Shown here: positions 1 through 7,896 of the stretch, one piece after another | Position numbering within the stretch: the stretch's first letter is position 1 | Layout: the number at the start of each line of letters is the position of its first letter | Origin: Kiritimatiellia bacterium | GTDB lineage: Bacteria; Verrucomicrobiota; Kiritimatiellia; RFP12; UBA1067 | Direction: 5' to 3' | DNA length: 57,648 bases | Assembly: GCA_028700415.1 (NCBI GenBank) | Contig: JAQVSS010000005.1 | Location: 1-57,648, forward strand | The notes under the pieces: generated by a model | Databases searched by the model: none | What the model was told of the DNA's origin: nothing | Seen by the model: the letters and a program-made list of their open reading frames with translations, nothing else | Program-made: the position numbers and the translations under genes

Positions 1-989
1 TCGATGATATCGAAGCCGTTCCCCGTCTCGATCAGAAAATCCATTTCCAACCCGCTTTGGTCGCGCCAGAAATAAAAGGTTCGCCCCGTGTCACAGGCGA
101 GGTCTTTCTTCATGAGTTCAACGAGCACCCAATTTTCAAACAACGGGCCGCGCAGGGGGTGACTCGACAAATCATCCGCCGACCGGAGGCCCAGCAGACG
201 GCAGGCCAGCCCGGTGTCGTAAAAATACAGTTTCGGGGTCTTGATGATTCGCTTACGGAAATTCGTGTGATAGGGATTGAGCCGGAACGCGATAAAACCC
301 GCCTCCAGCACGCTCAGCCATGCGGCGGCGGTCTTCTGGTCAATGCCGCAGTCCGCCCCGAGGCGATTCTGGCTGACCAGTTGCCCGGACGAACCCGCGC
401 ACAGCCGGATGAACTGACGGAATTGCGCCTGGTCCTGAATCTGCTTGAGTTGCTGGACATCCCGTTCGATGTAGGTCTCAATATACGCGTTCAACCAATG
501 CACCGGCGAAACCGGCGAACTGAAGAGCGCCGGATACCCGCCCTTAAACACCGCATCCCAGACGGACCGGCTTCCCGCCGCCGCCGTTTTCAACTCAAAT
601 TCGGCAAGCGGCAGCAAATGAATATGCGCGATACGCCCCGCCAACGACTGTGTGATGCCCGCTTTAAGCGAAAACTGCTGCGACCCGGTGAGGATGTACT
701 GGCCATGCTTTGACGACTGGTCAAGGATCCCCTGAAGGTAGGAGAACAGGCGAGGCACCCGCTGAATCTCGTCGAGAATGGCCCCCTTCGGAAATTGCGC
801 AAGGAAGGCGCGTGGATCCGACAGGGCAAAATCGCGCACATCCGGATCTTCAAGCGTGACATAAGCCTTTTTAGGGAATGCCTGCCGCGCCAGCGTCGTC
901 TTGCCGGATTGGCGGGGCCCGGTAATCGCCAGCGCCTTAAACTCACGCGAAAAGGCGAGCGCCTTTTTTTGGATCAAGCGTGAAATCAT
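1..989 (-). CDS. AAA+ ATPase, DUF4143-type ATP-binding protein (C-terminus cut by window edge)
   Basis: Absent from the ORF track because it runs off the window. Hand translation of the minus strand from ATG 989-987 gives MISRLIQKKALAFSREFKALAITGPRQSGKTTLARQAFPKKAYVTLEDPDVRDF... with Walker A GPRQSGKTT. Further on, in frame, is ...NPYHTNFRKRIIKTPKLYFYDTGLACRLLG..., typical of the DUF4143 region. The listed + ORF 57..713 is its antisense shadow. Confidence 0.8.
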   Translation of the reverse strand, partial: MISRLIQKKALAFSREFKALAITGPRQSGKTTLARQAFPKKAYVTLEDPDVRDFALSDPRAFLAQFPKGAILDEIQRVPRLFSYLQGILDQSSKHGQYILTGSQQFSLKAGITQSLAGRIAHIHLLPLAEFELKTAAAGSRSVWDAVFKGGYPALFSSPVSPVHWLNAYIETYIERDVQQLKQIQDQAQFRQFIRLCAGSSGQLVSQNRLGADCGIDQKTAAAWLSVLEAGFIAFRLNPYHTNFRKRIIKTPKLYFYDTGLACRLLGLRSADDLSSHPLRGPLFENWVLVELMKKDLACDTGRTFYFWRDQSGLEMDFLIETGNGFDII

Positions 990-1008
990 CGGATCTCCGT
1001 TTAGTGTG

Positions 1009-1029
1009 ATTAGGAATTTGATTCCTAAT
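1009..1029. promoter_or_regulatory. Perfect 9-3-9 inverted repeat ATTAGGAAT-TTG-ATTCCTAAT, 20 nt upstream of the ATPase start codon
   Basis: Read directly. It lies in the AT-richer divergent intergenic region between the ATPase (-) and kinase (+) genes. Operator-like or 5'-UTR hairpin. Confidence 0.4.
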
Positions 1030-1135
1030 TTAACAAAACACGGTTACCCAGTCAAGGGGACGATGTTTGCTGAGTGCAGACAGAATTGCGGCCTCCCCCC
1101 TTTTTTCAAAAGAGGCCTGACTTTTTGGTGTCACT

Positions 1136-3634
1136 TTGTTACAGTTCAAATACTCTAAATGGGATGCGATGGCGCGAGGCCTCGAAATGGAAGAACGATT
1201 GAATACTGACAACACCGTGGCTGGATCGAGAACCGAAGCGGCGACCATGGCGACGCGATGCGGTTTGGGCGATGCGGTCACGCTGCCAACGGGCGCCTCA
1301 AGCCGCTTGGGGCAGATCGACCGGTATGCGTTGCTGAGGGAATTGGGAGGGGGCGGTTTCGGGGTGGTGTATCTTGCCCGGGACACCGTCGCCGGCATGG
1401 AGGTGGCGGTAAAAGGCCTGCCGCCCATGGTCAGGAACAACGCTGAAGAGCTGGAGCGCATCCGCGAGAATTTTGTGCTCGTCAGCCGCCTGTACCATCC
1501 GAACATCGCGCCGGCGTTGGTGTTGCACCAAGCACACGAGGTCTCGTATGCGGACGACCATGTCCGGCAAGCCCTGCGGGTCTTGCCCGGCGATTATCTG
1601 ATGGTGATGGCCTATGCGCCGGGGGTCACCTTGAACACGTGGCGCCGGCAGTTCCCCGAAGGGAAGGTTCCGGTGCGGCAGGCGCTCGAGGTTTGCCGGC
1701 AAATCGCTTCGGCGCTCGATTACGCGCACGGCGAGAAGATCATCCACCGGGATGTCAAGCCGTCGAATATTGTGGCGGAAACCCTGGGGGATGGGACCGT
1801 GCGCTGCCGCGTTCTCGACTTCGGGCTGGCCGCCGAAATCCATTCCAGCCTGAGCCGCGTCTCCTCGGAGACCTTTGACACGTCGGGGACGCGGCCCTAT
1901 ATGGCGCCCGAGCAGTGGCAGGGGAAACGGCAAGGGCCGCAGACGGACCAGTATGCGTTGGCGGTTCTTTTTTATGAACTGGTCGGCGGCTCGGTTCCGT
2001 TCGCTCCGGCCTTTGCGACGGGTGATGCGGTCATCATGGTGAACGTTGTGACGCAGCAGAAGCCGGAACCGCTGCCGCAACTTTCTCCGGCTCAGAACGG
2101 GGCGCTGTTGAAAGGGATGGCGAAAGAATCGGCGAACCGTTTCGCCACCTGCGGTGAACTTGTCGCGGCGCTGAACGGTCCGCAAGACGAAGAAAAGAAG
2201 ACGGCGCGTTACGCAAGGGGCGTGAGAGCCGTCGTGATCGCATCGGGGGTGGTTCTGCTGGCGGCCGCTTTTGGCGTGGGTGTCCAGGCGTTTCTGCGCG
2301 CGGCGAGAACGAAAGCCCAGCTTCAGCAGCCCCCGCCTGTGAGGCCGGTGGTAATAAACGGGGTGAAAAAGCCTTTGCCGGTCAAAGTTGAGGCCAAAGA
2401 GGGGCAAGCGCCGCGGGCGGATGGCGTCCAGACCGGTGCGCATCCCGCTGTCGAAATCATTTCGCCTCCGCCGAAGAAGAGTGCCGCGTCGGTTGAGCCC
2501 CAGCCTCCGGTCAAGGCGGAAACGGTGAAAATTCCGGTTGTCTCCGTCACGAACGCCGTTGTGCCTTCGCCGCCTCCGGCGGTGGGGGAGGCCGATGATG
2601 TGTACAGCGGGCTTGTGAAAAACATGGAAGCGGGCTTCCCGTCCGGCTGGGATAAGCCGGTCCGGATTGGGGTTGGGGATTTCTTTAGCGGTGAGACGCG
2701 CCTCATGTCCGCCTATTCCGGGGTTCTGCGGAAAGAGCTGCAGGGGCTTCTCGCCAAGAACAGCCGGTTCCAGCTGGTTTCCGGGGAACGGCTCGCGGCC
2801 CTGCTTGTGGACGGGCACTCGTTGGATCAGCGCGTTTTGGAGGCGGGCGCGGAGGCTGTCCCCGCCCCGTCCGGCGGGCTTGACGCGGTTTTACGGGGAA
2901 GATTCGCAAGGAATGGCGATGAGATAAAGATCAGCGGCGAGGTCGTTTGGCTGACACACGGGAAGGTCGCGAAAGTCGATGTCGCGAGTTCCGCCAAAAA
3001 GATCATGTCCCGTCTCTGGCCGGAATCGGAGCTTAAGCAGATCGGCGCAATGATCCGGTTGGCAGACTTGATGATGCCGCAAAACGAGGCTGGAAGCCTT
3101 AAAAGTCTTGCGGAGATCGAGGCGCGCGCAAAGAAGGTGCCGCATGATTTTGATATCCGGTTGGTGACCGCCGATGCGCGGCGGGACTATGCCGCAGGGG
3201 AAGAATGCCGCTACCGGTTTTCCAGTTCCTGCGATTGTCATGTGGCGGTGTTGTGTCACCAGGTCGACGGCACGTCGGTGGTGTTGTTCCCGAACAAATG
3301 GAGTCAGGAGACTTGGGTGCCGGCGGGTAAGGTGGCCGATATCCCCGGCGCCGCGAAACGGGGTTTCCAGATCGTGGTCAGCCCCCCGTTTGGAGCCGAT
3401 GTCGTGCAGGCGATTGCCTGTACCACGCGGAGTGCCCTGCACCGGCTGGTTGCGGAAGTGTCGTCGCGCGCTGCGCCCCAACAGGCGTTCGGCGTTGTGC
3501 CGCGCGGGGTGTTCACCCGGGGGTTGGACGACAGCCTTAACAACCTTGCCGCACCGCCAAACGGCTCAGAAGCTGTTCGCTGGTCTGAAGTGCGGCTTGT
3601 GATTTGCACGTATCCCCGTTTCATTGACCGATAA
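1136..3634 (+). CDS. Transmembrane Hanks-type Ser/Thr protein kinase with Pro-rich linker, periplasmic alpha/beta (FlgO/LpoB-like) region and C-terminal DUF4384-like domain
   Basis: ORF track 832 aa. Kinase motifs GGGGFGVVY, EVAVK, HRDVKPSN, DFG, YMAPE. One TM segment (AVVIASGVVLLAAAFGVGV). Pro-rich spacer. C-terminal block CDCHVAVLCHQVDGTSVVLFPNKWSQETWVPAGKV resembles DUF4384. True start may be an internal Met (MEERL at 1187 follows GAGG; MATRC at 1247). Confidence 0.9.
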   Translation: MLQFKYSKWDAMARGLEMEERLNTDNTVAGSRTEAATMATRCGLGDAVTLPTGASSRLGQIDRYALLRELGGGGFGVVYLARDTVAGMEVAVKGLPPMVRNNAEELERIRENFVLVSRLYHPNIAPALVLHQAHEVSYADDHVRQALRVLPGDYLMVMAYAPGVTLNTWRRQFPEGKVPVRQALEVCRQIASALDYAHGEKIIHRDVKPSNIVAETLGDGTVRCRVLDFGLAAEIHSSLSRVSSETFDTSGTRPYMAPEQWQGKRQGPQTDQYALAVLFYELVGGSVPFAPAFATGDAVIMVNVVTQQKPEPLPQLSPAQNGALLKGMAKESANRFATCGELVAALNGPQDEEKKTARYARGVRAVVIASGVVLLAAAFGVGVQAFLRAARTKAQLQQPPPVRPVVINGVKKPLPVKVEAKEGQAPRADGVQTGAHPAVEIISPPPKKSAASVEPQPPVKAETVKIPVVSVTNAVVPSPPPAVGEADDVYSGLVKNMEAGFPSGWDKPVRIGVGDFFSGETRLMSAYSGVLRKELQGLLAKNSRFQLVSGERLAALLVDGHSLDQRVLEAGAEAVPAPSGGLDAVLRGRFARNGDEIKISGEVVWLTHGKVAKVDVASSAKKIMSRLWPESELKQIGAMIRLADLMMPQNEAGSLKSLAEIEARAKKVPHDFDIRLVTADARRDYAAGEECRYRFSSSCDCHVAVLCHQVDGTSVVLFPNKWSQETWVPAGKVADIPGAAKRGFQIVVSPPFGADVVQAIACTTRSALHRLVAEVSSRAAPQQAFGVVPRGVFTRGLDDSLNNLAAPPNGSEAVRWSEVRLVICTYPRFIDR

Positions 3635-3698
3635 CTTTAGTGCCTTACAAACCAACAACCACGATAAAAAACAAGTTGTTTGCGAGAATTCATTGGAA

Positions 3699-3763
3699 CC
3701 ACGAAAGACACGGAATAACACGAAAGGGAACAGTCATTTTCGTGTTTTTTGTGTGTTTCGTGG
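3699..3763 (+). repeat. Long imperfect hairpin (about 26-bp stem, 11-nt loop) 65 nt downstream of the kinase stop
   Basis: Arms are ccacgaaagacacggaataacacgaaa and tttcgtgttttttgtgtgtttcgtgg. Hand pairing gives 1 mismatch, 1 bulge and 2 G-U pairs that only work for + strand RNA. No clean U-tract follows. Confidence 0.6.
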
Positions 3764-3799
3764 TTAATCCCGGTTGCGGTGTCGCGTTAGGTTGGGATG

Positions 3800-3882
3800 A
3801 GGATTACGATTAAGAGTACGATTAGGATTAAGATGGAACGGCTACTTTCATAATCGTAATCTTTATCCTAATCTTAATCGGC
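3800..3882. repeat. Low-complexity imperfect inverted repeat built from GATTA/CGATTA units
   Basis: The outer arm cgattaag (3807-3814) pairs with cttaatcg (3873-3880). Inner arms attaggat / atcctaat and aagat / atctt can pair around bulges. Confidence 0.5.
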
Positions 3883-3964
3883 TCCCTCTTGCGGGCTTCT
3901 GCCGCTTGACCCTAGTCAGCGGAACGGGGATGCGCCCGAATTGCTGCTGCGCGGCGTTAATCCG

Positions 3965-3993
3965 TTGACATGTATTCGGGTTGATGTTATTTT
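3965..3993 (+). promoter_or_regulatory. Sigma70-like promoter TTGACA-17-TATTTT for the lipoprotein/caspase operon
   Basis: TTGACA at 3965-3970, a 17-nt spacer, TATTTT at 3988-3993. It sits in an AT-rich patch about 100 nt upstream of the 4091 ATG, which has a GAGGA RBS. Confidence 0.5.
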
Positions 3994-4090
3994 TACGGCA
4001 TAAACTTTAATCCGTCATTATGTTTGGCGGCATCAAAGTGCAACGGTTAAGGTGTAGGGTAAACGTCTAAAAAGAAACGAGGATCAACAA

Positions 4091-4498
4091 ATGAACAAGG
4101 TCACCTCTCTCTGTCTCGCGGCGATCACGGCTGTCTCGCTGACGGGATGCGTGGGTTATAGGAACAGTGTTGCCCAGGGAAATCTGGTGCTAGACATCAA
4201 CACCACGGCGACCTATGACGTCATCGGAGACGCGAAGGGAACCGCGACAGGCGCGACGCTGTTCGGCTTCATTCCGATTGGCGGCGAGAACAAGGGCGGA
4301 TCGATTGGGGCGAGCGGAATGATGATGCTTGGCCCGGTCGAGCAGGCGGCGATTTATAACGCCATCGAGTCTGTGCCAACGGCAGATTCCCTCATGTGGC
4401 CGCGTTTCCAGGTGGAAGTGGCTAATTATATCGTCTATTCCGAAAAGACGGTAACCGTGAAGGGCAAAGCGATCCGCTTCAATCCTTCTGCGAAATGA
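4091..4498 (+). CDS. Small lipoprotein (possibly TRL-like family), paralog 1
   Basis: 135 aa. Signal peptide with lipobox LTGC. RBS GAGGA. The C-terminal 18 aa NYIVYSEKTVTVKGKAIR are identical to the neighbouring paralog despite 8 synonymous nucleotide differences, which indicates purifying selection. TRL-like assignment is tentative. Confidence 0.8.
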   Translation: MNKVTSLCLAAITAVSLTGCVGYRNSVAQGNLVLDINTTATYDVIGDAKGTATGATLFGFIPIGGENKGGSIGASGMMMLGPVEQAAIYNAIESVPTADSLMWPRFQVEVANYIVYSEKTVTVKGKAIRFNPSAK

Positions 4499-4557
4499 CC
4501 TTGATCGGGTTCCCGCAGGGATGATTCTCTACGGAACTTTCTTTCAAAGGAGTCGAA

Positions 4558-5052
4558 ATGAAGTTTGAATGCGGATGGATGGCCGTATTCTTGGCGCTGG
4601 CGGTTTGTGCGGGGTGTGTCGGTTACAGGAGTTCCGCTCCGGAAGCCTGCATGCCCCTCAAGAACACCAAAACCACGGCAAGTTTTGATGTGATTGGGAA
4701 TGCCGAGGGAAGCGCGTCGGGCGCAACGCTGTTCGGGTTCATCGCGATAGGCGGTGAGCGTAAAAGCGGACGGTTGGGTTCGATTCCGACAGACGAGAGG
4801 CAGGTCGACGGTAAGAAAGTGGTTAGCACCATCTTATTCCCGCCGGCACTGCTGTATTGGTGGAAGACTTCCTCGTCCGCGATGGATCCCGTTGAGCAGA
4901 CCGCGCTCTTCAACGCGATCGAGTCAGTCCCGACGGCGGATATGCTTCTGTTGCCGAGGTATCACGTCGAACGTTCCAATTACATCGTCTATTCCGAGAA
5001 AACGGTGACGGTGAAAGGGAAAGCGATCCGGTTGAACAAGTCTGCGAACTGA
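4558..5052 (+). CDS. Small lipoprotein, paralog 2 (carries an internal insertion of about 30 aa)
   Basis: 164 aa. Lipobox CAGC. Strong RBS AAGGAG. Shares GATLFGFI.IGGE, PVEQ.A..NAIESVPTAD and NYIVYSEKTVTVKGKAIR blocks with 4091..4498. Confidence 0.8.
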   Translation: MKFECGWMAVFLALAVCAGCVGYRSSAPEACMPLKNTKTTASFDVIGNAEGSASGATLFGFIAIGGERKSGRLGSIPTDERQVDGKKVVSTILFPPALLYWWKTSSSAMDPVEQTALFNAIESVPTADMLLLPRYHVERSNYIVYSEKTVTVKGKAIRLNKSAN

Positions 5053-5060
5053 ACGATAGT

Positions 5061-5092
5061 ACGCTTCCGGGGCGTCTGCCCCGGAAGCGTTT
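5061..5092 (+). terminator. Strong GC hairpin (13-bp stem, GUCU tetraloop) between lipoprotein 2 and the caspase gene; partial terminator, attenuator or mRNA stabiliser
   Basis: acgcttccggggc-gtct-gccccggaagcgt pairs perfectly and is followed by only about 3 T. It ends 6 nt before the caspase ATG. Confidence 0.5.
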
Positions 5093-5097
5093 CCCCT

Positions 5098-6750
5098 ATG
5101 AAAACACAAGCGCGTCTCTTTATCGCACGGATGGTTCTCCTGTCCGCGGTGGCATTCGTGGGCGGGTGTTCGACCGTCAACAGCACGACGTTTACGCAAG
5201 GCGCGATTCAGTCGGGGCGCAAAAAAAGCGCGGCTGTCGCGCAGGATGGGGAAGGCCGTAAAGGGACGCTGGGGGTCGTTCACGTGCGTTGCTTTACAGA
5301 ATCGCGCGGCCGGAATCATCAGGAGAGTCATAACCTTTGGCTTGCGTATATCCCGATCGCGTGTGTGGGCACGTATTGGGAACGCCCGGATTGGCTCCTC
5401 TGGGACCCAAACCGTTCGGCGTACAAGCCCGTCGGCCTCGATATGGCCGAGGCGCTGTGCCTGGAGTTGGAAGAAACCGGGCTGTTCAATAAAGTCATGC
5501 GCCCGGACGAAGAGGGTTTTGCGGACTGGATCATTGAAGGCGATGTGCAGAAGTTGACCTATGAGATGCGCCCGCATCTCTGCGGCGGCTCCATTCTCCT
5601 GGCCCCCTTTCTCGGGACATTGGGCTTGCCCATGGGAACCTGGTCGGTGGATCAGAAGGTCTGCCTGAAGGTCAAGGCTGCAGCCGACGCCTCGACGCTT
5701 TTCGAAAAGACCGTCGAGACGCATTCGGATGGGCTGATCGGGGCGTGTTACGGGGGCAACCCCATGCAGTACGGGTATCCTTACGGACAAGCGATGGGAC
5801 CGGTCGTGTCCGGGTTGCTTTCGGAATTGCCGGGAAAGCTTGCCGCCGCGCGGAAGACGCTCCCGCCTGCCGGCGGGCTGGCAAAGGCCGCCGGCAAACC
5901 GCCGGTTGCGCCAACGGTTTCCGCGCCTCCCCCAGCCGTTTTGATCCCCCAAGTTTCAACGCGGCCCGGTATCTGTTGGGCCGTGGTGATCGGCATTTCC
6001 GCCTATAAAGATTCCAGGATTCCGGCCCTCCGGTATGCGGCCAGTGATGCGCGGGCATTCTATCACTGGCTGGTCAATCCGCAGGGGGGGCGCTATGCTC
6101 CCGCCAACGTCAAACTGCTGCTGGACGGGGATGCGACGGGTGTCAATATCCGGCAGGCCCTTTTCGACTGGCTGCAACAGGCGGTCGCCGAGGATCAGGT
6201 GACGATTTATTTTGCCGGGCACGGCTCGCCGGATTCACCGGACTCGTCGTCCAATCTTTTTCTGCTCCCCTACGACACGGATTACAGCCGGATTTCTTCA
6301 ACCGCATTTCCCATGTGGGATGTGGAGACCGCGCTGAAACGGTATGTCCGCGCGAAACGGGTGGTCGTGATCGCGGATGCGTGCCATGCGGCGGGGGTGG
6401 GTGAAGGCTTCGATATCGCGCGGCGCTCGGGCCGCGGCATGACCGTTAATCCGATCGACGTGGGCTTGGAGAACCTTGCGAATGTGGGTGAAGGCACCTG
6501 TGTGATCAGCGCCTCGAGCGGAAGCCAAACGTCTCAGGAAGGGGCAAAGTGGGGGGGAGGATACGGCGTCTTCACGTATTTCCTCCTGCAGGGGCTGAAC
6601 GGGCAGGCGGATTTTCCGCGCGACGGGCGGATCACGCTGGGGAAACTCACCCAATACGTTTCTGAACAGGTGCGGCGGGCGACCCGCAACGCGCAAACCC
6701 CCATCGTCTCCGGCCGGTACGACCCGGCCTGGCTCATTGCGCACCCCTGA
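5098..6750 (+). CDS. Lipoprotein-anchored caspase-fold protease (peptidase C14 / orthocaspase-like) with unknown N-terminal domain and Pro-rich linker
   Basis: 550 aa. Signal peptide with lipobox VGGC. C-terminal domain WAVVIGISAYKD...ALRYAASDA has the catalytic dyad context YFAGHGSPD (His) and VVIADACHAAG (Cys). Confidence 0.85.
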   Translation: MKTQARLFIARMVLLSAVAFVGGCSTVNSTTFTQGAIQSGRKKSAAVAQDGEGRKGTLGVVHVRCFTESRGRNHQESHNLWLAYIPIACVGTYWERPDWLLWDPNRSAYKPVGLDMAEALCLELEETGLFNKVMRPDEEGFADWIIEGDVQKLTYEMRPHLCGGSILLAPFLGTLGLPMGTWSVDQKVCLKVKAAADASTLFEKTVETHSDGLIGACYGGNPMQYGYPYGQAMGPVVSGLLSELPGKLAAARKTLPPAGGLAKAAGKPPVAPTVSAPPPAVLIPQVSTRPGICWAVVIGISAYKDSRIPALRYAASDARAFYHWLVNPQGGRYAPANVKLLLDGDATGVNIRQALFDWLQQAVAEDQVTIYFAGHGSPDSPDSSSNLFLLPYDTDYSRISSTAFPMWDVETALKRYVRAKRVVVIADACHAAGVGEGFDIARRSGRGMTVNPIDVGLENLANVGEGTCVISASSGSQTSQEGAKWGGGYGVFTYFLLQGLNGQADFPRDGRITLGKLTQYVSEQVRRATRNAQTPIVSGRYDPAWLIAHP

Positions 6751-6774
6751 GGGCGCGGGCGCTTTCCCGTCCCG

Positions 6775-7896
6775 TCACACGTATCGCCGTTCCACGCGGT
6801 TGCCGAACGAGCAGATGATCTCGTAAGGATGGGTGTTCTTAAGCGCGGCCCAGTCCTCGACCGTTAGGGCGTGGAGGCCCTCGCCGCCGAGACAGACCGC
6901 CACGTCGCCGACCGCGGCGTCGGGCACGCTTTCGAGCGAGACGGTGGTGTAGTCCATGGAGAGGCGCCCCAGCACGGGGCAGGGAATGCCTCGGATGAGC
7001 ACGTAACCGCGGTTCGAGAGCGCGAGCGGCAGGCCGTCCGCATAGCCGGCGGAGACCGTGCCCACGCGGGTCGGGCGGTGAAGCCGGTAGGTGTGGCCGT
7101 ACCCGATGCCGGTGCCCGCGGGCAGGGTCCGGATGGCGGTCAGTCGCGTTTTGAGCGTGAGCACCGGCTTCACCTGCAAGATGCGTTTGCCGGCAGAGTC
7201 GAACGAGCCGTGAAGGTTGATGCCGGTGCGGACGACGTTGAACGGGGGTTGGCAGGCGCGCGGGAAATTGTTGATCGCGTCGCTGTTCGCGATGTGGCGT
7301 TTGGCGAACGTGATGCCGTCGCGCGCGAAGTCGGCGAGGATGTCACAGAAAAGATCCATCTGGCGGTTGGTCAGCTCCGAGCCGGTTTCATAGGCGAAGG
7401 GAAAGTGCGAGAAGATGCCTTCGCGGTGCAGGCCGGGGAGTGTGCGGGTCTTGCGGATGACGTCGGGCGCTTCGCTGGCAAGGATGCCGAGGCGGCCCAT
7501 GCCCGTGTCGAGCTTGAAGTGGACGGTGGCGGTTTTGCCGAGCCGCAGGGCGGCTCCGCTGATGAGCTGGGCGGTGGGGAAATCGGTCACGGGCAGGATC
7601 ACGCCCGCGGCAACCATGGGCTCAATCTCGTCCGGCAGGATGCTGCTGAGGATCTGGACCGGCTGGCCGAGCGGCAGCAGTTGGAGGGCTTCGTGGGGTT
7701 CGGCCACGCCGAAGCCGGATGCGCCCGCTTTCGCGAGCGCCTGGGCAATGGGCAAGACGCCGAGGCCGTAGGCGTTGGCTTTGAGCACGGTGAGCACATC
7801 TGCGGGCGCGACCGCGTCGGCGATCTTGCGGTAATTCCGGGTCAGGGTGTCGAGGCTGATCTCCAGCCAGACTCGTCGGGGAATCGTATCATTCAT
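6775..7896 (-). CDS. alr: Alanine racemase
   Basis: PLP-lysine motif VLKANAYGLG and full-length Alr-like sequence. Start is placed at MNDTIPRRVWLEISL (ATG 7896) rather than the ORF-track upstream Met at 8022. Confidence 0.9.
   Translation of the reverse strand: MNDTIPRRVWLEISLDTLTRNYRKIADAVAPADVLTVLKANAYGLGVLPIAQALAKAGASGFGVAEPHEALQLLPLGQPVQILSSILPDEIEPMVAAGVILPVTDFPTAQLISGAALRLGKTATVHFKLDTGMGRLGILASEAPDVIRKTRTLPGLHREGIFSHFPFAYETGSELTNRQMDLFCDILADFARDGITFAKRHIANSDAINNFPRACQPPFNVVRTGINLHGSFDSAGKRILQVKPVLTLKTRLTAIRTLPAGTGIGYGHTYRLHRPTRVGTVSAGYADGLPLALSNRGYVLIRGIPCPVLGRLSMDYTTVSLESVPDAAVGDVAVCLGGEGLHALTVEDWAALKNTHPYEIICSFGNRVERRYV

What the first reader, a model, noticed from the sequence alone, without database searches (positions are those of the whole stretch)
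1136..6750. Envelope module: transmembrane Ser/Thr kinase with periplasmic DUF4384-like domain next to a lipoprotein-anchored caspase-fold protease and two paralogous small lipoproteins
Seen in the sequence: four co-oriented genes. (a) An 832-aa Hanks kinase has all catalytic motifs, one TM segment, a Pro-rich spacer, an alpha/beta extracytoplasmic region and a C-terminal DUF4384-like block. (b, c) Two small paralogous lipoproteins have their own TTGACA-17-TATTTT promoter. (d) A 550-aa lipoprotein has a C-terminal C14 caspase-fold domain with an intact His/Cys dyad (YFAGHGSPD, DACHAAG). Established knowledge: in bacterial domain architectures DUF4384 is frequently fused C-terminally to peptidase C14 domains, and also occurs with Pkinase. 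Inference: here the caspase domain and DUF4384 are split between neighbouring proteins, and both are predicted to face the periplasm. That suggests a protease-to-kinase signalling pair, for example envelope-damage or phage-triggered, or regulated proteolysis read out by phosphorylation. A periplasmic, lipid-anchored orthocaspase coupled to an eSTK is not a characterised system as far as I know. The DUF4143 AAA+ ATPase immediately upstream may or may not belong to it.
Basis: partly seen in the sequence, partly recalled or inferred. Interest (0 to 1): 0.7.

Follow-up and report, generated by a model that had tools for sequence, protein, structure and literature searches.

The report
Envelope caspase lipoprotein with DUF4384 receptor kinase
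A bacterium of the Lentisphaerae/Kiritimatiellae group encodes a membrane receptor kinase next to a lipid-anchored caspase-like protease and two novel small lipoproteins, and comparison with relatives shows that the kinase's outer sensor domain (DUF4384) repeatedly travels with caspase-type proteases, pointing to an uncharacterised protease-linked signalling module in the cell envelope.

Summary
Four co-oriented genes encode:
- a Hanks kinase with one TM segment, a Pro-rich spacer, a CsgG-like domain and DUF4384 (58.8 bits, cut-off 27);
- two paralogous lipoproteins (56% identical);
- a 550-aa lipoprotein with a C14 domain and an invariant His375/Cys429.

New findings:
1. The strict core is small lipoprotein + "caspN", the CsgG/LptE-fold N-domain of the 550-aa protein. 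Every caspN gene has the small lipoprotein just upstream. About half of the lineages lack the caspase domain.
2. The small lipoprotein family (~132 clusters) has no Pfam family and no PDB fold match.
3. The DUF4384 ectodomain lies next to the caspase-bearing operon in 4 of 7 lineages with enough flank, and in 0 of 6 caspase-less lineages.
4. All five ectodomain contexts chosen independently hold a caspase-fold protease: fused C14, Sel1-C14, C14-FGE-sulfatase or TPR-CHAT. All were predicted extracytoplasmic wherever topology was checked.
5. The ectodomain is also fused to cytoplasmic TIR domains.

The kinase is a separate transcription unit and is missing in some relatives. The divergent AAA_14-DUF4143 ATPase is not part of the module.

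Functional coupling of protease and DUF4384 receptor is well supported. The mechanism, proteolysis read out by phosphorylation, is inferred.

The parts
1136..3634 (+). Single-pass receptor Ser/Thr kinase (832-aa ORF from a TTG; likely start at ATG 1169 or 1187)
   Evidence: ORF. Pkinase and DUF4384. N-terminus compared with L013.
1325..2134 (+). Cytoplasmic Hanks kinase domain (residues 64-333) with G-loop, VAVK, HRD, DFG and APE motifs
   Evidence: Pfam Pkinase 3.3e-36. Motifs read from the translation.
2228..2284 (+). Transmembrane segment (residues 365-383, AVVIASGVVLLAAAFGVGV), followed by a Pro-rich spacer of about 110 aa
   Evidence: Kyte-Doolittle scan gives 2.48 and finds only this one segment.
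2657..2995 (+). CsgG-like alpha/beta ectodomain (residues ~508-620)
   Evidence: Aligned family A6. 13 of 22 members hit Pfam CsgG, best 1.6e-5. The window's own copy is below threshold.
3188..3427 (+). DUF4384 core (residues 685-764), with conserved Cys/His/Asp and the LFPN and PFG.D motifs
   Evidence: PF14326, 58.8 bits against a cut-off of 27. Invariant columns.
3428..3631 (+). Conserved C-terminal extension of the ectodomain (TRG..., RW.E..., TYP)
   Evidence: Conserved across the 22 family members. 44% identity over 323 aa to the standalone L011 protein.
3697..3880 (.). Two long imperfect hairpins after the kinase gene (3697-3765, and 3796-3880 with a 12-nt period). A possible terminator or inserted element, specific to this window.
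   Evidence: Fold z = -3.3. Repeats. Absent from the L028 and L013 spacers. No Rfam match.
3965..3993 (+). Promoter-like TTGACA-17-TATTTT with an extended -10 TG, ahead of the lipoprotein-caspase operon
   Evidence: Scan. The hexamers and the leader are conserved in L028 and L013.
4091..4498 (+). Small lipoprotein A (135 aa, lipobox LTGC), member of an unnamed family
   Evidence: Alignments. 132 clusters with no Pfam hit. AF2 pLDDT 86.6 with no PDB or BFVD fold match.
4558..5052 (+). Small lipoprotein B (164 aa, lipobox CAGC), a paralog of A with a hydrophobic insertion of about 30 aa
   Evidence: 56% identical to A. An orthologous A/B pair is present in L007, L013, L028 and L030.
5098..5862 (+). 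Signal peptide and lipobox (VGGC) followed by the 'caspN' domain (residues ~25-255), a CsgG/LptE/FlgT-like lipoprotein fold
   Evidence: AF2 model. Foldseek hits to CsgG 4uv2 (5.5e-5), FlgT, the DUF330 protein 2iqi and LptE. Weak TolB_N hit. The domain occurs without a caspase in L014, L015, L018, L032, L034-L036 and L038-L040.
5863..5973 (+). Pro/Ala-rich flexible tether (residues ~256-292)
   Evidence: pLDDT below 50 at residues 259-287.
5974..6750 (+). Peptidase C14 caspase-fold domain with His375 (6220-6222) and Cys429 (6382-6384)
   Evidence: Pfam 1.3e-14. The dyad is invariant in 51 sequences. Foldseek hits to GSU0716 (1.5e-11), MALT1 and Yca1.

Best explanation
This is an envelope-facing, protease-linked signalling module of the PVC bacteria (Planctomycetes-Verrucomicrobia-Chlamydiae group).

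Anatomy:
- One operon, with its own promoter, encodes one or two small beta-rich lipoproteins and a larger lipoprotein.
- The larger lipoprotein has a CsgG/LptE-fold N-domain (caspN) that always pairs with the small lipoprotein. This pair probably forms a membrane-anchored platform.
- In this lineage the platform carries a catalytically intact C14 caspase-like protease on a flexible Pro-rich tether of about 35 residues.
- The neighbouring gene encodes a single-pass receptor: a cytoplasmic Hanks kinase, one TM segment, a Pro-rich spacer of about 110 residues, then a CsgG-like domain and DUF4384 outside the cytoplasm.

Proposed mechanism (inferred): the DUF4384 ectodomain is the partner of the caspase-fold protease, either as a docking site or as a substrate. 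Binding or cleavage in the periplasm changes the activity of the kinase. In relatives the same ectodomain is fused to a TIR domain instead, so an extracytoplasmic proteolytic event would be converted into a cytoplasmic signal.

My sub-probabilities:
- annotation of the parts, about 0.95;
- real functional coupling between the DUF4384 ectodomain and the caspase-fold protease, about 0.7;
- direct binding or cleavage that controls the kinase, about 0.35.
For: Shown here:
- Domain calls and intact catalytic motifs.
- One TM segment in the kinase, and lipoboxes on the three other proteins (plus direct reading).
- The small lipoprotein sits upstream of caspN in every caspN locus, about 20 loci.
- Kinase-DUF4384 is adjacent in the window, L013 and L028, in L002 and in L004, although the flanking genes differ.
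- A standalone copy of the same ectodomain (44% identity over 323 aa, 3e-97) lies two genes downstream of the caspase in L011.
- DUF4384 is adjacent in 4 of 7 caspase-bearing lineages against 0 of 6 caspase-less caspN lineages (one-sided Fisher p = 0.049).
- P0143 is a single polypeptide with signal peptide, C14, CsgG-like domain and DUF4384. It lies next to a TM kinase and a sigma70-FHA gene.
- TIR-TM-ectodomain is directly followed by GYF-TM-TPR-CHAT.
- Standalone ectodomains lie in operon-like runs with Sel1-C14, with C14-FGE-sulfatase, or with two TPR-CHAT genes. That makes 5 of 5 independently sampled contexts.
- Of the 42 longest members among the top 150 family representatives, 19 carry Pkinase, 5 carry TIR_2 and 2 carry Peptidase_C14.

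Precedent from the literature:
- DUF4384 'often co-occurs' with N-terminal kinase domains (PMC6426788).
Against: - There is no experimental or structural evidence of contact or cleavage. No complex prediction could be run.
- The kinase gene is a separate unit, with a 456-bp spacer, terminator-like hairpins and a separate conserved promoter for the lipoprotein genes.
- No DUF4384 gene lies within the available flanks in L007 (75% identical caspase protein), L008 or L012.
- caspN and the small lipoprotein exist without caspase or DUF4384 in many lineages, so the platform has a function of its own.
- The Fisher test is marginal and the lineages are not independent.
- PVC genomes are rich in Ser/Thr kinases, which raises the rate of chance adjacency for kinases in general, although not for DUF4384.
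- Whether the lipoproteins sit in the inner or the outer membrane is unknown.
Confidence: 0.45

Rival explanations
1. Shared-target model. DUF4384, together with its CsgG-like neighbour domain, binds an envelope or extracellular ligand. It is appended to, or encoded beside, different enzymes (kinase, TIR, caspase, trypsin) so that they act on or sense the same target. On this view the protease and the kinase work in the same process but do not act on each other.
For: - The same ectodomain is mostly standalone. About 108 of the top 150 representatives are 450 aa or shorter.
- It is fused to several unrelated enzymatic domains.
- FGE-sulfatase, a known ligand-binding fold, occupies the same C-terminal position on kinases and caspases in L002 and L046, and in L046 it lies beside a DGR (diversity-generating retroelement)-like reverse transcriptase.
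- Conserved Cys, His and Asp residues in DUF4384 could form a binding site.
Against: - The model does not explain why the partner is specifically a caspase-fold protease in 5 of 5 sampled contexts and in 4 caspN-caspase lineages.
- The Csx29-Csx30 precedent points to a protease-substrate relation.
- No ligand is known.
Confidence: 0.25
2. Independent neighbours. The lipoprotein operon is a self-contained envelope complex: a CsgG/LptE-like platform with a small partner lipoprotein, sometimes carrying a housekeeping periplasmic protease. The kinase is an unrelated envelope sensor that happens to lie nearby in some lineages.
For: - Separate promoter and a long spacer.
- The kinase is missing next to close orthologs in L007, L008 and L012.
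- The pair of small lipoprotein and caspN is conserved without caspase or DUF4384 in at least 6 lineages.
- The window's flanks are housekeeping genes.
Against: - Adjacency recurs in three lineages with different flanks, and the standalone ectodomain is present in L011.
- A fused C14-ectodomain protein exists, and there is an association with CHAT and other C14 proteins in unrelated loci.
- None of 47 loci shows the reverse pattern, that is, DUF4384 next to a caspase-less caspN.
Confidence: 0.18
3. Conflict or defence system. The module senses attack at the envelope (phage adsorption, bacteriocins, predators) and triggers a kinase-, TIR- or caspase-mediated stress or suicide response.
For: - The domain vocabulary (caspase, CHAT, TIR, STK, DGR) is typical of conflict systems.
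- The module sits in different genomic neighbourhoods in different relatives, next to an integrase fragment in L004 and next to a PADLOC candidate-system PDC-S01-type ATPase here.
- GC content is about 5% lower over the first 6 kb.
Against: - The PADLOC kinase and caspase hits are generic domain hits.
- The NCBIfam EACC1-type caspase model scores below its cut-off (96.8 against 140).
- There are no PHROG hits.
- The flanks are housekeeping genes, and other parts of the window have equally low GC.
- The ATPase is not conserved with the module.
Confidence: 0.12

Closest known systems
Bacterial Hanks-type receptor Ser/Thr kinases with C-terminal DUF4384 (the 'Proteo1' family architecture in the bacterial STK atlas, bioRxiv 10.1101/2025.01.12.632604)
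   Same: Cytoplasmic Pkinase, one TM segment and an extracytoplasmic DUF4384. All catalytic motifs are intact.
   Different: No function is known for that architecture. Here there is an extra CsgG-like domain before DUF4384 and a conserved neighbourhood with a caspase lipoprotein operon. Membership of 'Proteo1' itself was not tested.
Orthocaspases / bacterial Peptidase C14 proteins, including C14-DUF4384 fusions (PMC6426788, PMC7475262)
   Same: A p20-type caspase fold with a His/Cys dyad, a metacaspase-like DxCH motif, and an association with DUF4384.
   Different: The protease here is a lipoprotein with a CsgG/LptE-like N-domain. DUF4384 is supplied in trans on a kinase. The characterised orthocaspases are cytoplasmic cyanobacterial enzymes. 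Substrate specificity was not tested here.
Type III-E CRISPR 'Craspase': the TPR-CHAT protease Csx29 cleaving Csx30 (bioRxiv 10.1101/2022.08.17.504292)
   Same: A caspase-fold protease is paired with a partner protein that can carry DUF4384, and proteolysis is converted into a regulatory output.
   Different: No CRISPR, TPR-CHAT, Csx31 or RpoE is present here. The compartment is the periplasm, not the cytoplasm, and the output domain is a kinase. This is an analogy, not membership.
CsgG / LptE / FlgT / PqiC(DUF330)-type envelope lipoproteins
   Same: Lipid-anchored alpha/beta fold. Foldseek matches for caspN (5.5e-5 to 7e-4) and Pfam CsgG hits in 13 of 22 ectodomain relatives.
   Different: TM-scores are low (0.3-0.6 of target) and the window proteins have no Pfam hit of their own. 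There are no curli, Lpt, flagellar or Pqi genes nearby. Pore formation is untested.
Regulated-proteolysis envelope signalling (DegS/RseP-RseA-sigmaE) and protease-activated receptors such as the Toll/Spaetzle cascade
   Same: The logic proposed here is the same: an extracytoplasmic protease acts on a single-pass membrane protein to create a cytoplasmic signal. TIR-TM-ectodomain relatives next to an exported CHAT protease mirror the Toll topology.
   Different: The protease families and receptor domains are unrelated. The comparison rests on established knowledge of those pathways, and nothing here was tested.

Membership tests
Hanks-type Ser/Thr protein kinase (Pfam Pkinase PF00069) | Profile match above the gathering score | tested here: met
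   125.5 bits against a cut-off of 31.7, residues 64-333.
Hanks-type Ser/Thr protein kinase (Pfam Pkinase PF00069) | Catalytic motifs: Gly-rich loop, beta3 Lys, HRD..K..N, DFG and APE | tested here: met
   GGGGFGVV, VAVK, HRDVKPSN, DFG and YMAPE read from the translation.
Hanks-type Ser/Thr protein kinase (Pfam Pkinase PF00069) | Phosphotransfer activity | not testable with these tools
   Needs a biochemical assay.
DUF4384 (PF14326) | Profile match above the gathering score | tested here: met
   58.8 bits against a cut-off of 27 at residues 685-764. All 22 family members match.
Peptidase C14 (caspase / metacaspase / orthocaspase) | Profile match above the gathering score | tested here: met
   54.9 bits against a cut-off of 21.4, residues 294-538.
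Peptidase C14 (caspase / metacaspase / orthocaspase) | Catalytic His-Cys dyad in the conserved motifs | tested here: met
   G374-H375-G376 and D427-x-C429-H430 are invariant in 51 aligned homologs.
Peptidase C14 (caspase / metacaspase / orthocaspase) | Caspase-hemoglobinase fold | tested here: met
   AF2 pLDDT is mostly above 85 over residues 293-548. Foldseek gives GSU0716 at 1.5e-11, plus MALT1, Yca1 and legumain.
Peptidase C14 (caspase / metacaspase / orthocaspase) | Arg/Lys-specific cleavage (the orthocaspase/metacaspase trait) | not testable with these tools
   The only hint is an invariant Asp317 in an 'SDA' motif resembling the metacaspase S1 Asp. That is inference from memory of metacaspase motifs.
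NCBIfam NF047832, caspase of the EACC1-associated type | Score above the curated cut-off | tested here: not met
   96.8 bits against a cut-off of 140. No EACC1 partner was seen.
CsgG family (PF03783) curli-type secretion lipoprotein | Profile match for the window's proteins | tested here: not met
   No hit for caspN or for kinase residues 390-690, even at E<=10. There is only family-level (13 of 22 relatives) and fold-level resemblance.
CsgG family (PF03783) curli-type secretion lipoprotein | Oligomeric outer-membrane pore; curli genes csgE/F/A/B in the neighbourhood | tested here: not met
   No curli genes are in the window. Oligomerisation is not testable here.
TRL-like (PF13146) / DUF6567 (PF20205) small lipoproteins | Profile match above the gathering score | tested here: not met
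   Both window proteins give no hit at E<=10. Among 64 relatives, 9 hit DUF6567 (best 0.0023) and 1 hits TRL (0.0032).
PADLOC PD-T4-6 / mad6 kinase defence genes | Match beyond the generic kinase domain, in a defence context | tested here: inconclusive
   The hits (3.3e-54) cover only the kinase domain, residues 60-357. No partner genes or defence island are nearby.
Type III-E Craspase (Csx29-Csx30) | TPR-CHAT protease together with Cas7-11, a CRISPR array and Csx30/Csx31/RpoE | tested here: not met
   None of these appears in the Pfam scans of the window's genes. It serves only as a functional analogy.

The most novel reading that the evidence does not exclude
DUF4384 ectodomain proteins and exported caspase-fold proteases (C14 or CHAT) together form a widespread, undescribed class of bacterial trans-envelope 'protease-coupled receptors'. 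An extracytoplasmic proteolytic event would be transmitted through a single-pass protein to a cytoplasmic Ser/Thr kinase or TIR domain. That would be a bacterial counterpart of Toll-type or protease-activated receptor signalling, possibly used for surveillance of the envelope against phages or competitors. The PVC version is anchored on a new two-lipoprotein platform.
Probability: 0.25. Interest if true: 0.85.

Novelty: new variant of a known kind. Interest (0 to 1): 0.66.

Why it matters
Bacterial caspase homologs and most bacterial Hanks kinases have no known trigger or substrate. Here a specific, testable pairing emerges: an exported caspase-fold protease and a receptor whose sensor domain (DUF4384) has been an annotation orphan. 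In relatives the same sensor is wired to TIR domains.

If the pairing is real, it would:
- give DUF4384 a function, as a handle or substrate for caspase-fold proteases;
- explain why DUF4384 is fused to proteases, kinases and a class of CRISPR Csx30 proteins;
- reveal a proteolysis-to-phosphorylation or proteolysis-to-TIR route across the bacterial envelope.

The work also defines two unannotated families. One is a small lipoprotein family of about 132 clusters with a confident model but no PDB or viral fold match. The other is a CsgG/LptE-like 'caspN' lipoprotein domain. Together they form an invariant pair in PVC bacteria.

Tried and rejected
- **ATPase as a member.** The AAA_14-DUF4143 ATPase is divergent, on the minus strand, and tblastn finds it in none of the 47 related loci. 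Rejected.
- **TRL-like identity of the small lipoproteins.** Only sub-threshold hits in a minority of relatives. Not a member.
- **EACC1-type caspase.** Below the cut-off.
- **Defence-system call from PADLOC.** The hits are generic kinase and caspase domain hits. PHROGs gave nothing.
- **Sequence search of PDB with caspN and small-lipoprotein profiles.** Only chance-level hits.
- **Foldseek of the small lipoprotein against PDB and BFVD.** No match with E<=0.001.
- **Rfam on 900-7000.** Nothing.
- **Hairpins at 3697-3880 as a conserved regulatory element.** They are absent from the homologous spacers of L028 and L013.
- **Search of the window for FHA-sigma, LPP20-like partners or further kinase, caspase or lipoprotein paralogs.** None found.
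- **Relaxed HMM search for a caspN partner next to distant small-lipoprotein genes (L019-L025).** None found, so the small lipoprotein can also occur alone.
- **Literature searches** for a periplasmic orthocaspase or for this module found no description of it.

Full report
**1. Observation**

The four co-oriented ORFs exist at the stated coordinates.
- **Kinase (1136-3634).** It scores as Pkinase (residues 64-333, 3.3e-36) and as DUF4384 (residues 685-764, 58.8 bits against a cut-off of 27). The G-loop, VAVK, HRDVKPSN, DFG and APE motifs can be read from the translation.
- **Topology.** One hydrophobic segment (residues 365-383) separates the kinase from a Pro-rich spacer and the C-terminal 330 residues.
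- **Start codon.** Alignment with the ortholog in L013 places the true start at the ATG at 1169 or 1187, not the TTG at 1136.
- **Small proteins.** The two are 56% identical and have lipoboxes.
- **550-aa protein.** It has a lipobox and a C-terminal Peptidase_C14 domain (1.3e-14). His375 and Cys429 are invariant in 51 homologs. The modelled fold matches GSU0716, MALT1 and Yca1.
- **Upstream gene.** The AAA_14-DUF4143 ATPase lies on the minus strand (989..<1), divergent from the kinase.

**2. Transcription units**

The kinase gene is followed by a 456-bp spacer.
- The spacer holds two long hairpins, at 3697-3765 and 3796-3880 (z = -3.3). These are absent from the corresponding spacers of the close relatives L028 and L013.
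- The TTGACA-17-TATTTT site at 3965-3993 is not enriched over chance in the region.
- That site and the leader of about 100 nt behind it are nevertheless conserved in L028 and L013.

So the lipoprotein-caspase genes, which have gaps of only 59 and 45 bp, probably form their own operon, separate from the kinase gene.

**3. Whose genome**

Full-length homologs of the caspase lipoprotein and of the small lipoprotein come from Lentisphaeraceae/Lentisphaerales, Kiritimatiellae and Planctomycetota (including Brocadiaceae) MAGs (metagenome-assembled genomes). There is one distant Leptospiraceae hit. The rest of the window is ordinary chromosome: alanine racemase, a DEAD-box helicase, a UPF0004/radical-SAM/TRAM enzyme (MiaB/RimO-like by its Pfam domains), DnaX, GAPDH, Ddl, Nqr and an RND/OEP efflux pump.

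**4.

I built HMMs from session alignments and searched the six-frame ORFs of 40 loci.
- The small lipoprotein lies directly upstream of the N-terminal domain of the 550-aa protein ('caspN', residues ~25-255) in every locus that has caspN.
- caspN occurs with the caspase domain in the window clade, L002, L004, L007, L008, L011, L012 and L016.
- caspN occurs without any caspase domain in L014/L033, L015, L018, L032, L034, L035, L036 and L038-L040.
- More distant small-lipoprotein genes (L019-L025) have no caspN neighbour.
- caspN has no Pfam family. Its AF2 model resembles CsgG (pre-pore form), FlgT, the DUF330/PqiC-like protein 2iqi and LptE.
- A strongly conserved aromatic stretch in caspN (residues 72-108) is modelled with pLDDT below 50. 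I take this as a hint that it folds on a partner or on the membrane. That is inference.
- The small lipoprotein family has about 132 clusters, all unnamed and without Pfam domains. It gives a confident model (pLDDT 86.6, pTM 0.76) with no significant PDB or viral fold match.
- Only sub-threshold DUF6567 and TRL hits appear, in a minority of relatives.
- The window has two tandem paralogs, A and B, where B carries a hydrophobic insertion. L007, L013, L028 and L030 have the same pair. L029 has a single copy that looks like an A/B recombinant.

**5. The caspase domain**

The domain is 60-70% identical to hundreds of caspase domains from Desulfobacterota and other phyla. Those domains follow TPR-PDZ, HEAT, PEGA or unknown N-terminal modules. 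By a crude N-terminal test, about 83 of 100 of these proteins have a lipobox or a hydrophobic leader. Exported or lipid-anchored caspases are therefore the rule in this subfamily. caspN is one of several anchoring modules that carry the same protease at the end of a flexible linker.

**6. The kinase ectodomain**

- Residues 451-832 are 44% identical over 323 residues (3e-97) to a standalone 381-aa exported protein. That protein is encoded two genes downstream of the caspase lipoprotein in L011.
- The family is bipartite. It has a CsgG-like alpha/beta domain (13 of 22 members hit Pfam CsgG) followed by DUF4384 with a conserved C-terminal extension.
- A profile search of 1.84 billion representatives finds 5321 proteins at E<=0.001 and 133 at E<=1e-30.
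- Most of the best 150 are standalone. Of the 42 longest, 19 carry Pkinase, 5 carry TIR_2 and 2 carry Peptidase_C14.
- In the TIR forms a TM segment separates the TIR domain from the ectodomain.
- The ectodomain is thus the outer part of single-pass receptors with kinase or TIR outputs.

**7. Is the kinase-caspase adjacency meaningful?**

Evidence anchored on caspN:
- A DUF4384 gene is adjacent in 4 of 7 caspase-bearing lineages with enough flank. These are the window/L013/L028 clade, L002, L004 and L011.
- It is adjacent in 0 of 6 caspase-less lineages (one-sided Fisher p = 0.049). The test is marginal and the lineages are not independent.
- The flanking genes differ among those loci.

Evidence anchored on the ectodomain, from all five contexts I could fetch:
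- **P0143** is a fused signal-peptide-C14-CsgG-like-DUF4384 protein. It follows a TM kinase, and a sigma70_r2-FHA gene lies divergently upstream.
- **P0135** is TIR-TM-ectodomain, directly followed by GYF-TM-TPR-CHAT.
- **P0134** lies in a same-strand run ending in a signal-peptide-Sel1-C14 protein.
- **P0142** is followed by Pkinase-FGE-sulfatase, an HRDC/reverse-transcriptase pair resembling a diversity-generating retroelement (DGR), and C14-FGE-sulfatase.
- **P0133** is followed by two TPR-CHAT genes.

Caspase-fold proteases are rare genes, so five of five is far beyond what chance adjacency would give. That is inference; no background census was run. Wherever I checked topology (the L041 CHAT protein, P0143 and the L044 Sel1-C14 protein), the protease part is predicted to be outside the cytoplasm, like the ectodomain.

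**8. Mechanism**

Shown: the parts, their predicted topology, and the genomic linkage.

Inferred: the DUF4384 ectodomain is a docking partner or substrate of the caspase-fold protease, and this event controls the cytoplasmic kinase (or the TIR domain in relatives). The published precedent is type III-E CRISPR. [quoted passage not shown]

The long Pro-rich spacers, about 110 aa in the kinase and about 35 aa in the caspase lipoprotein, would let an inner-membrane receptor and a lipoprotein-anchored protease meet across the periplasm. That is also inference.

Against a direct link:
- the transcription units are separate;
- the kinase is missing beside the 75%-identical ortholog in L007, and beside those in L008 and L012;
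- there is no interaction evidence.

The rival explanations are a shared-ligand model, independent neighbours, and a defence role. They are scored in their own section.

**9. Comparison with what is known**

- The Pkinase-DUF4384 architecture is listed in the bacterial STK atlas.
- C14-DUF4384 and trypsin-p20-DUF4384 architectures are noted in orthocaspase surveys.
- None of these has a function assigned.
- I found no description of the lipoprotein platform, of the split kinase/caspase arrangement, or of the TIR-ectodomain/CHAT pairing.
- The module is not an EACC1-type caspase system, not a curli system, and not a recognised PADLOC system beyond generic domain hits.

**10. Verdict**

The protease-DUF4384 link is real at the level of comparative genomics. 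The direction and the trigger of signalling are open.
- The module is modular rather than a fixed four-gene unit.
- Novelty: a new variant of regulated-proteolysis and receptor-kinase signalling, containing two unannotated protein families.
- Interest: 0.66.

Noticed in passing
window 3697-3880: Two long imperfect hairpins lie in the kinase-lipoprotein spacer. The second is built from 12-nt-periodic GATTAnGAnTAC units. They are absent from the homologous spacers of L028 and L013 and have no Rfam match. They may be a small inserted element or a terminator.
   Followed up: partly
window 3955-4090: The leader of about 100 nt behind the promoter-like site is strongly conserved in L028 and L013. 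The motif TAATCCGT occurs both at the -35 hexamer and about 45 nt downstream, so it could be a regulator binding site.
   Followed up: no
window 1-989 (minus strand): An AAA_14 + DUF4143 ATPase matches the PADLOC candidate system PDC-S01 (3.9e-93). It is divergent from the kinase and is found in none of the 47 related loci.
   Followed up: yes
L029:245-2657: A relative with 91-93% DNA identity has one small lipoprotein gene where the window has two. The alignment breakpoints suggest recombination between the tandem paralogs A and B.
   Followed up: partly
L041:8001-14833: A TIR-TM-(CsgG-like + DUF4384) protein is directly followed by a GYF_2-TM-TPR-CHAT protein of 1298 aa and a 433-aa lipoprotein. 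A TIR-WD40 gene and an HSP90-like ATPase lie nearby. The topology resembles Toll, next to an exported caspase-fold protease.
   Followed up: partly
L046:10001-21167: A standalone DUF4384 ectodomain gene is followed by a 1312-aa Pkinase-FGE-sulfatase gene, an HRDC + RVT_1 pair resembling a diversity-generating retroelement, a Peptidase_C14-FGE-sulfatase gene and another kinase gene.
   Followed up: no
L043:1974-7757: A Sigma70_r2-FHA protein is encoded divergently from a TM kinase. The kinase precedes the fused C14-CsgG-like-DUF4384 protein and a 157-aa lipoprotein. The FHA-sigma factor is a candidate output of such kinases.
   Followed up: no
L011:5553-6527 and L044:361-1332: Proteins of 324 and 323 aa are homologous (36% identity, 2e-62) and one gives a weak LPP20 hit. 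Each precedes a standalone DUF4384 ectodomain gene, so they may be an extra component of the kinase-less version. The window has no counterpart.
   Followed up: partly
L002:1946-7121: Two further Pkinase-FGE-sulfatase genes lie in tandem directly upstream of the Pkinase-DUF4384 gene.
   Followed up: no
L038, L039, L040 (caspN genes): These caspN-only proteins have an internal deletion of HMM positions ~124-200. The missing part includes the hydrophobic Gly-rich segment.
   Followed up: no
window 5974-6750 and P0014-P0120: The caspase domain is 60-70% identical to caspase domains of Desulfobacterota and other phyla that carry TPR-PDZ, HEAT or PEGA modules. About 83 of 100 of these have a lipobox or a hydrophobic N-terminus. 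That is unusually high conservation for a shuffled domain.
   Followed up: partly
window 3188-3427 (DUF4384 core): The family has invariant or nearly invariant Cys251, His252, His258, Asp261 and Cys312 (numbering within the 382-aa ectodomain query). These could form a disulfide or a metal or ligand site.
   Followed up: no
window 1-6000: GC content is about 0.58, against 0.64 in the next 4 kb. Several other 2-kb bins in the window are equally low, so this is weak evidence of foreign origin.
   Followed up: partly
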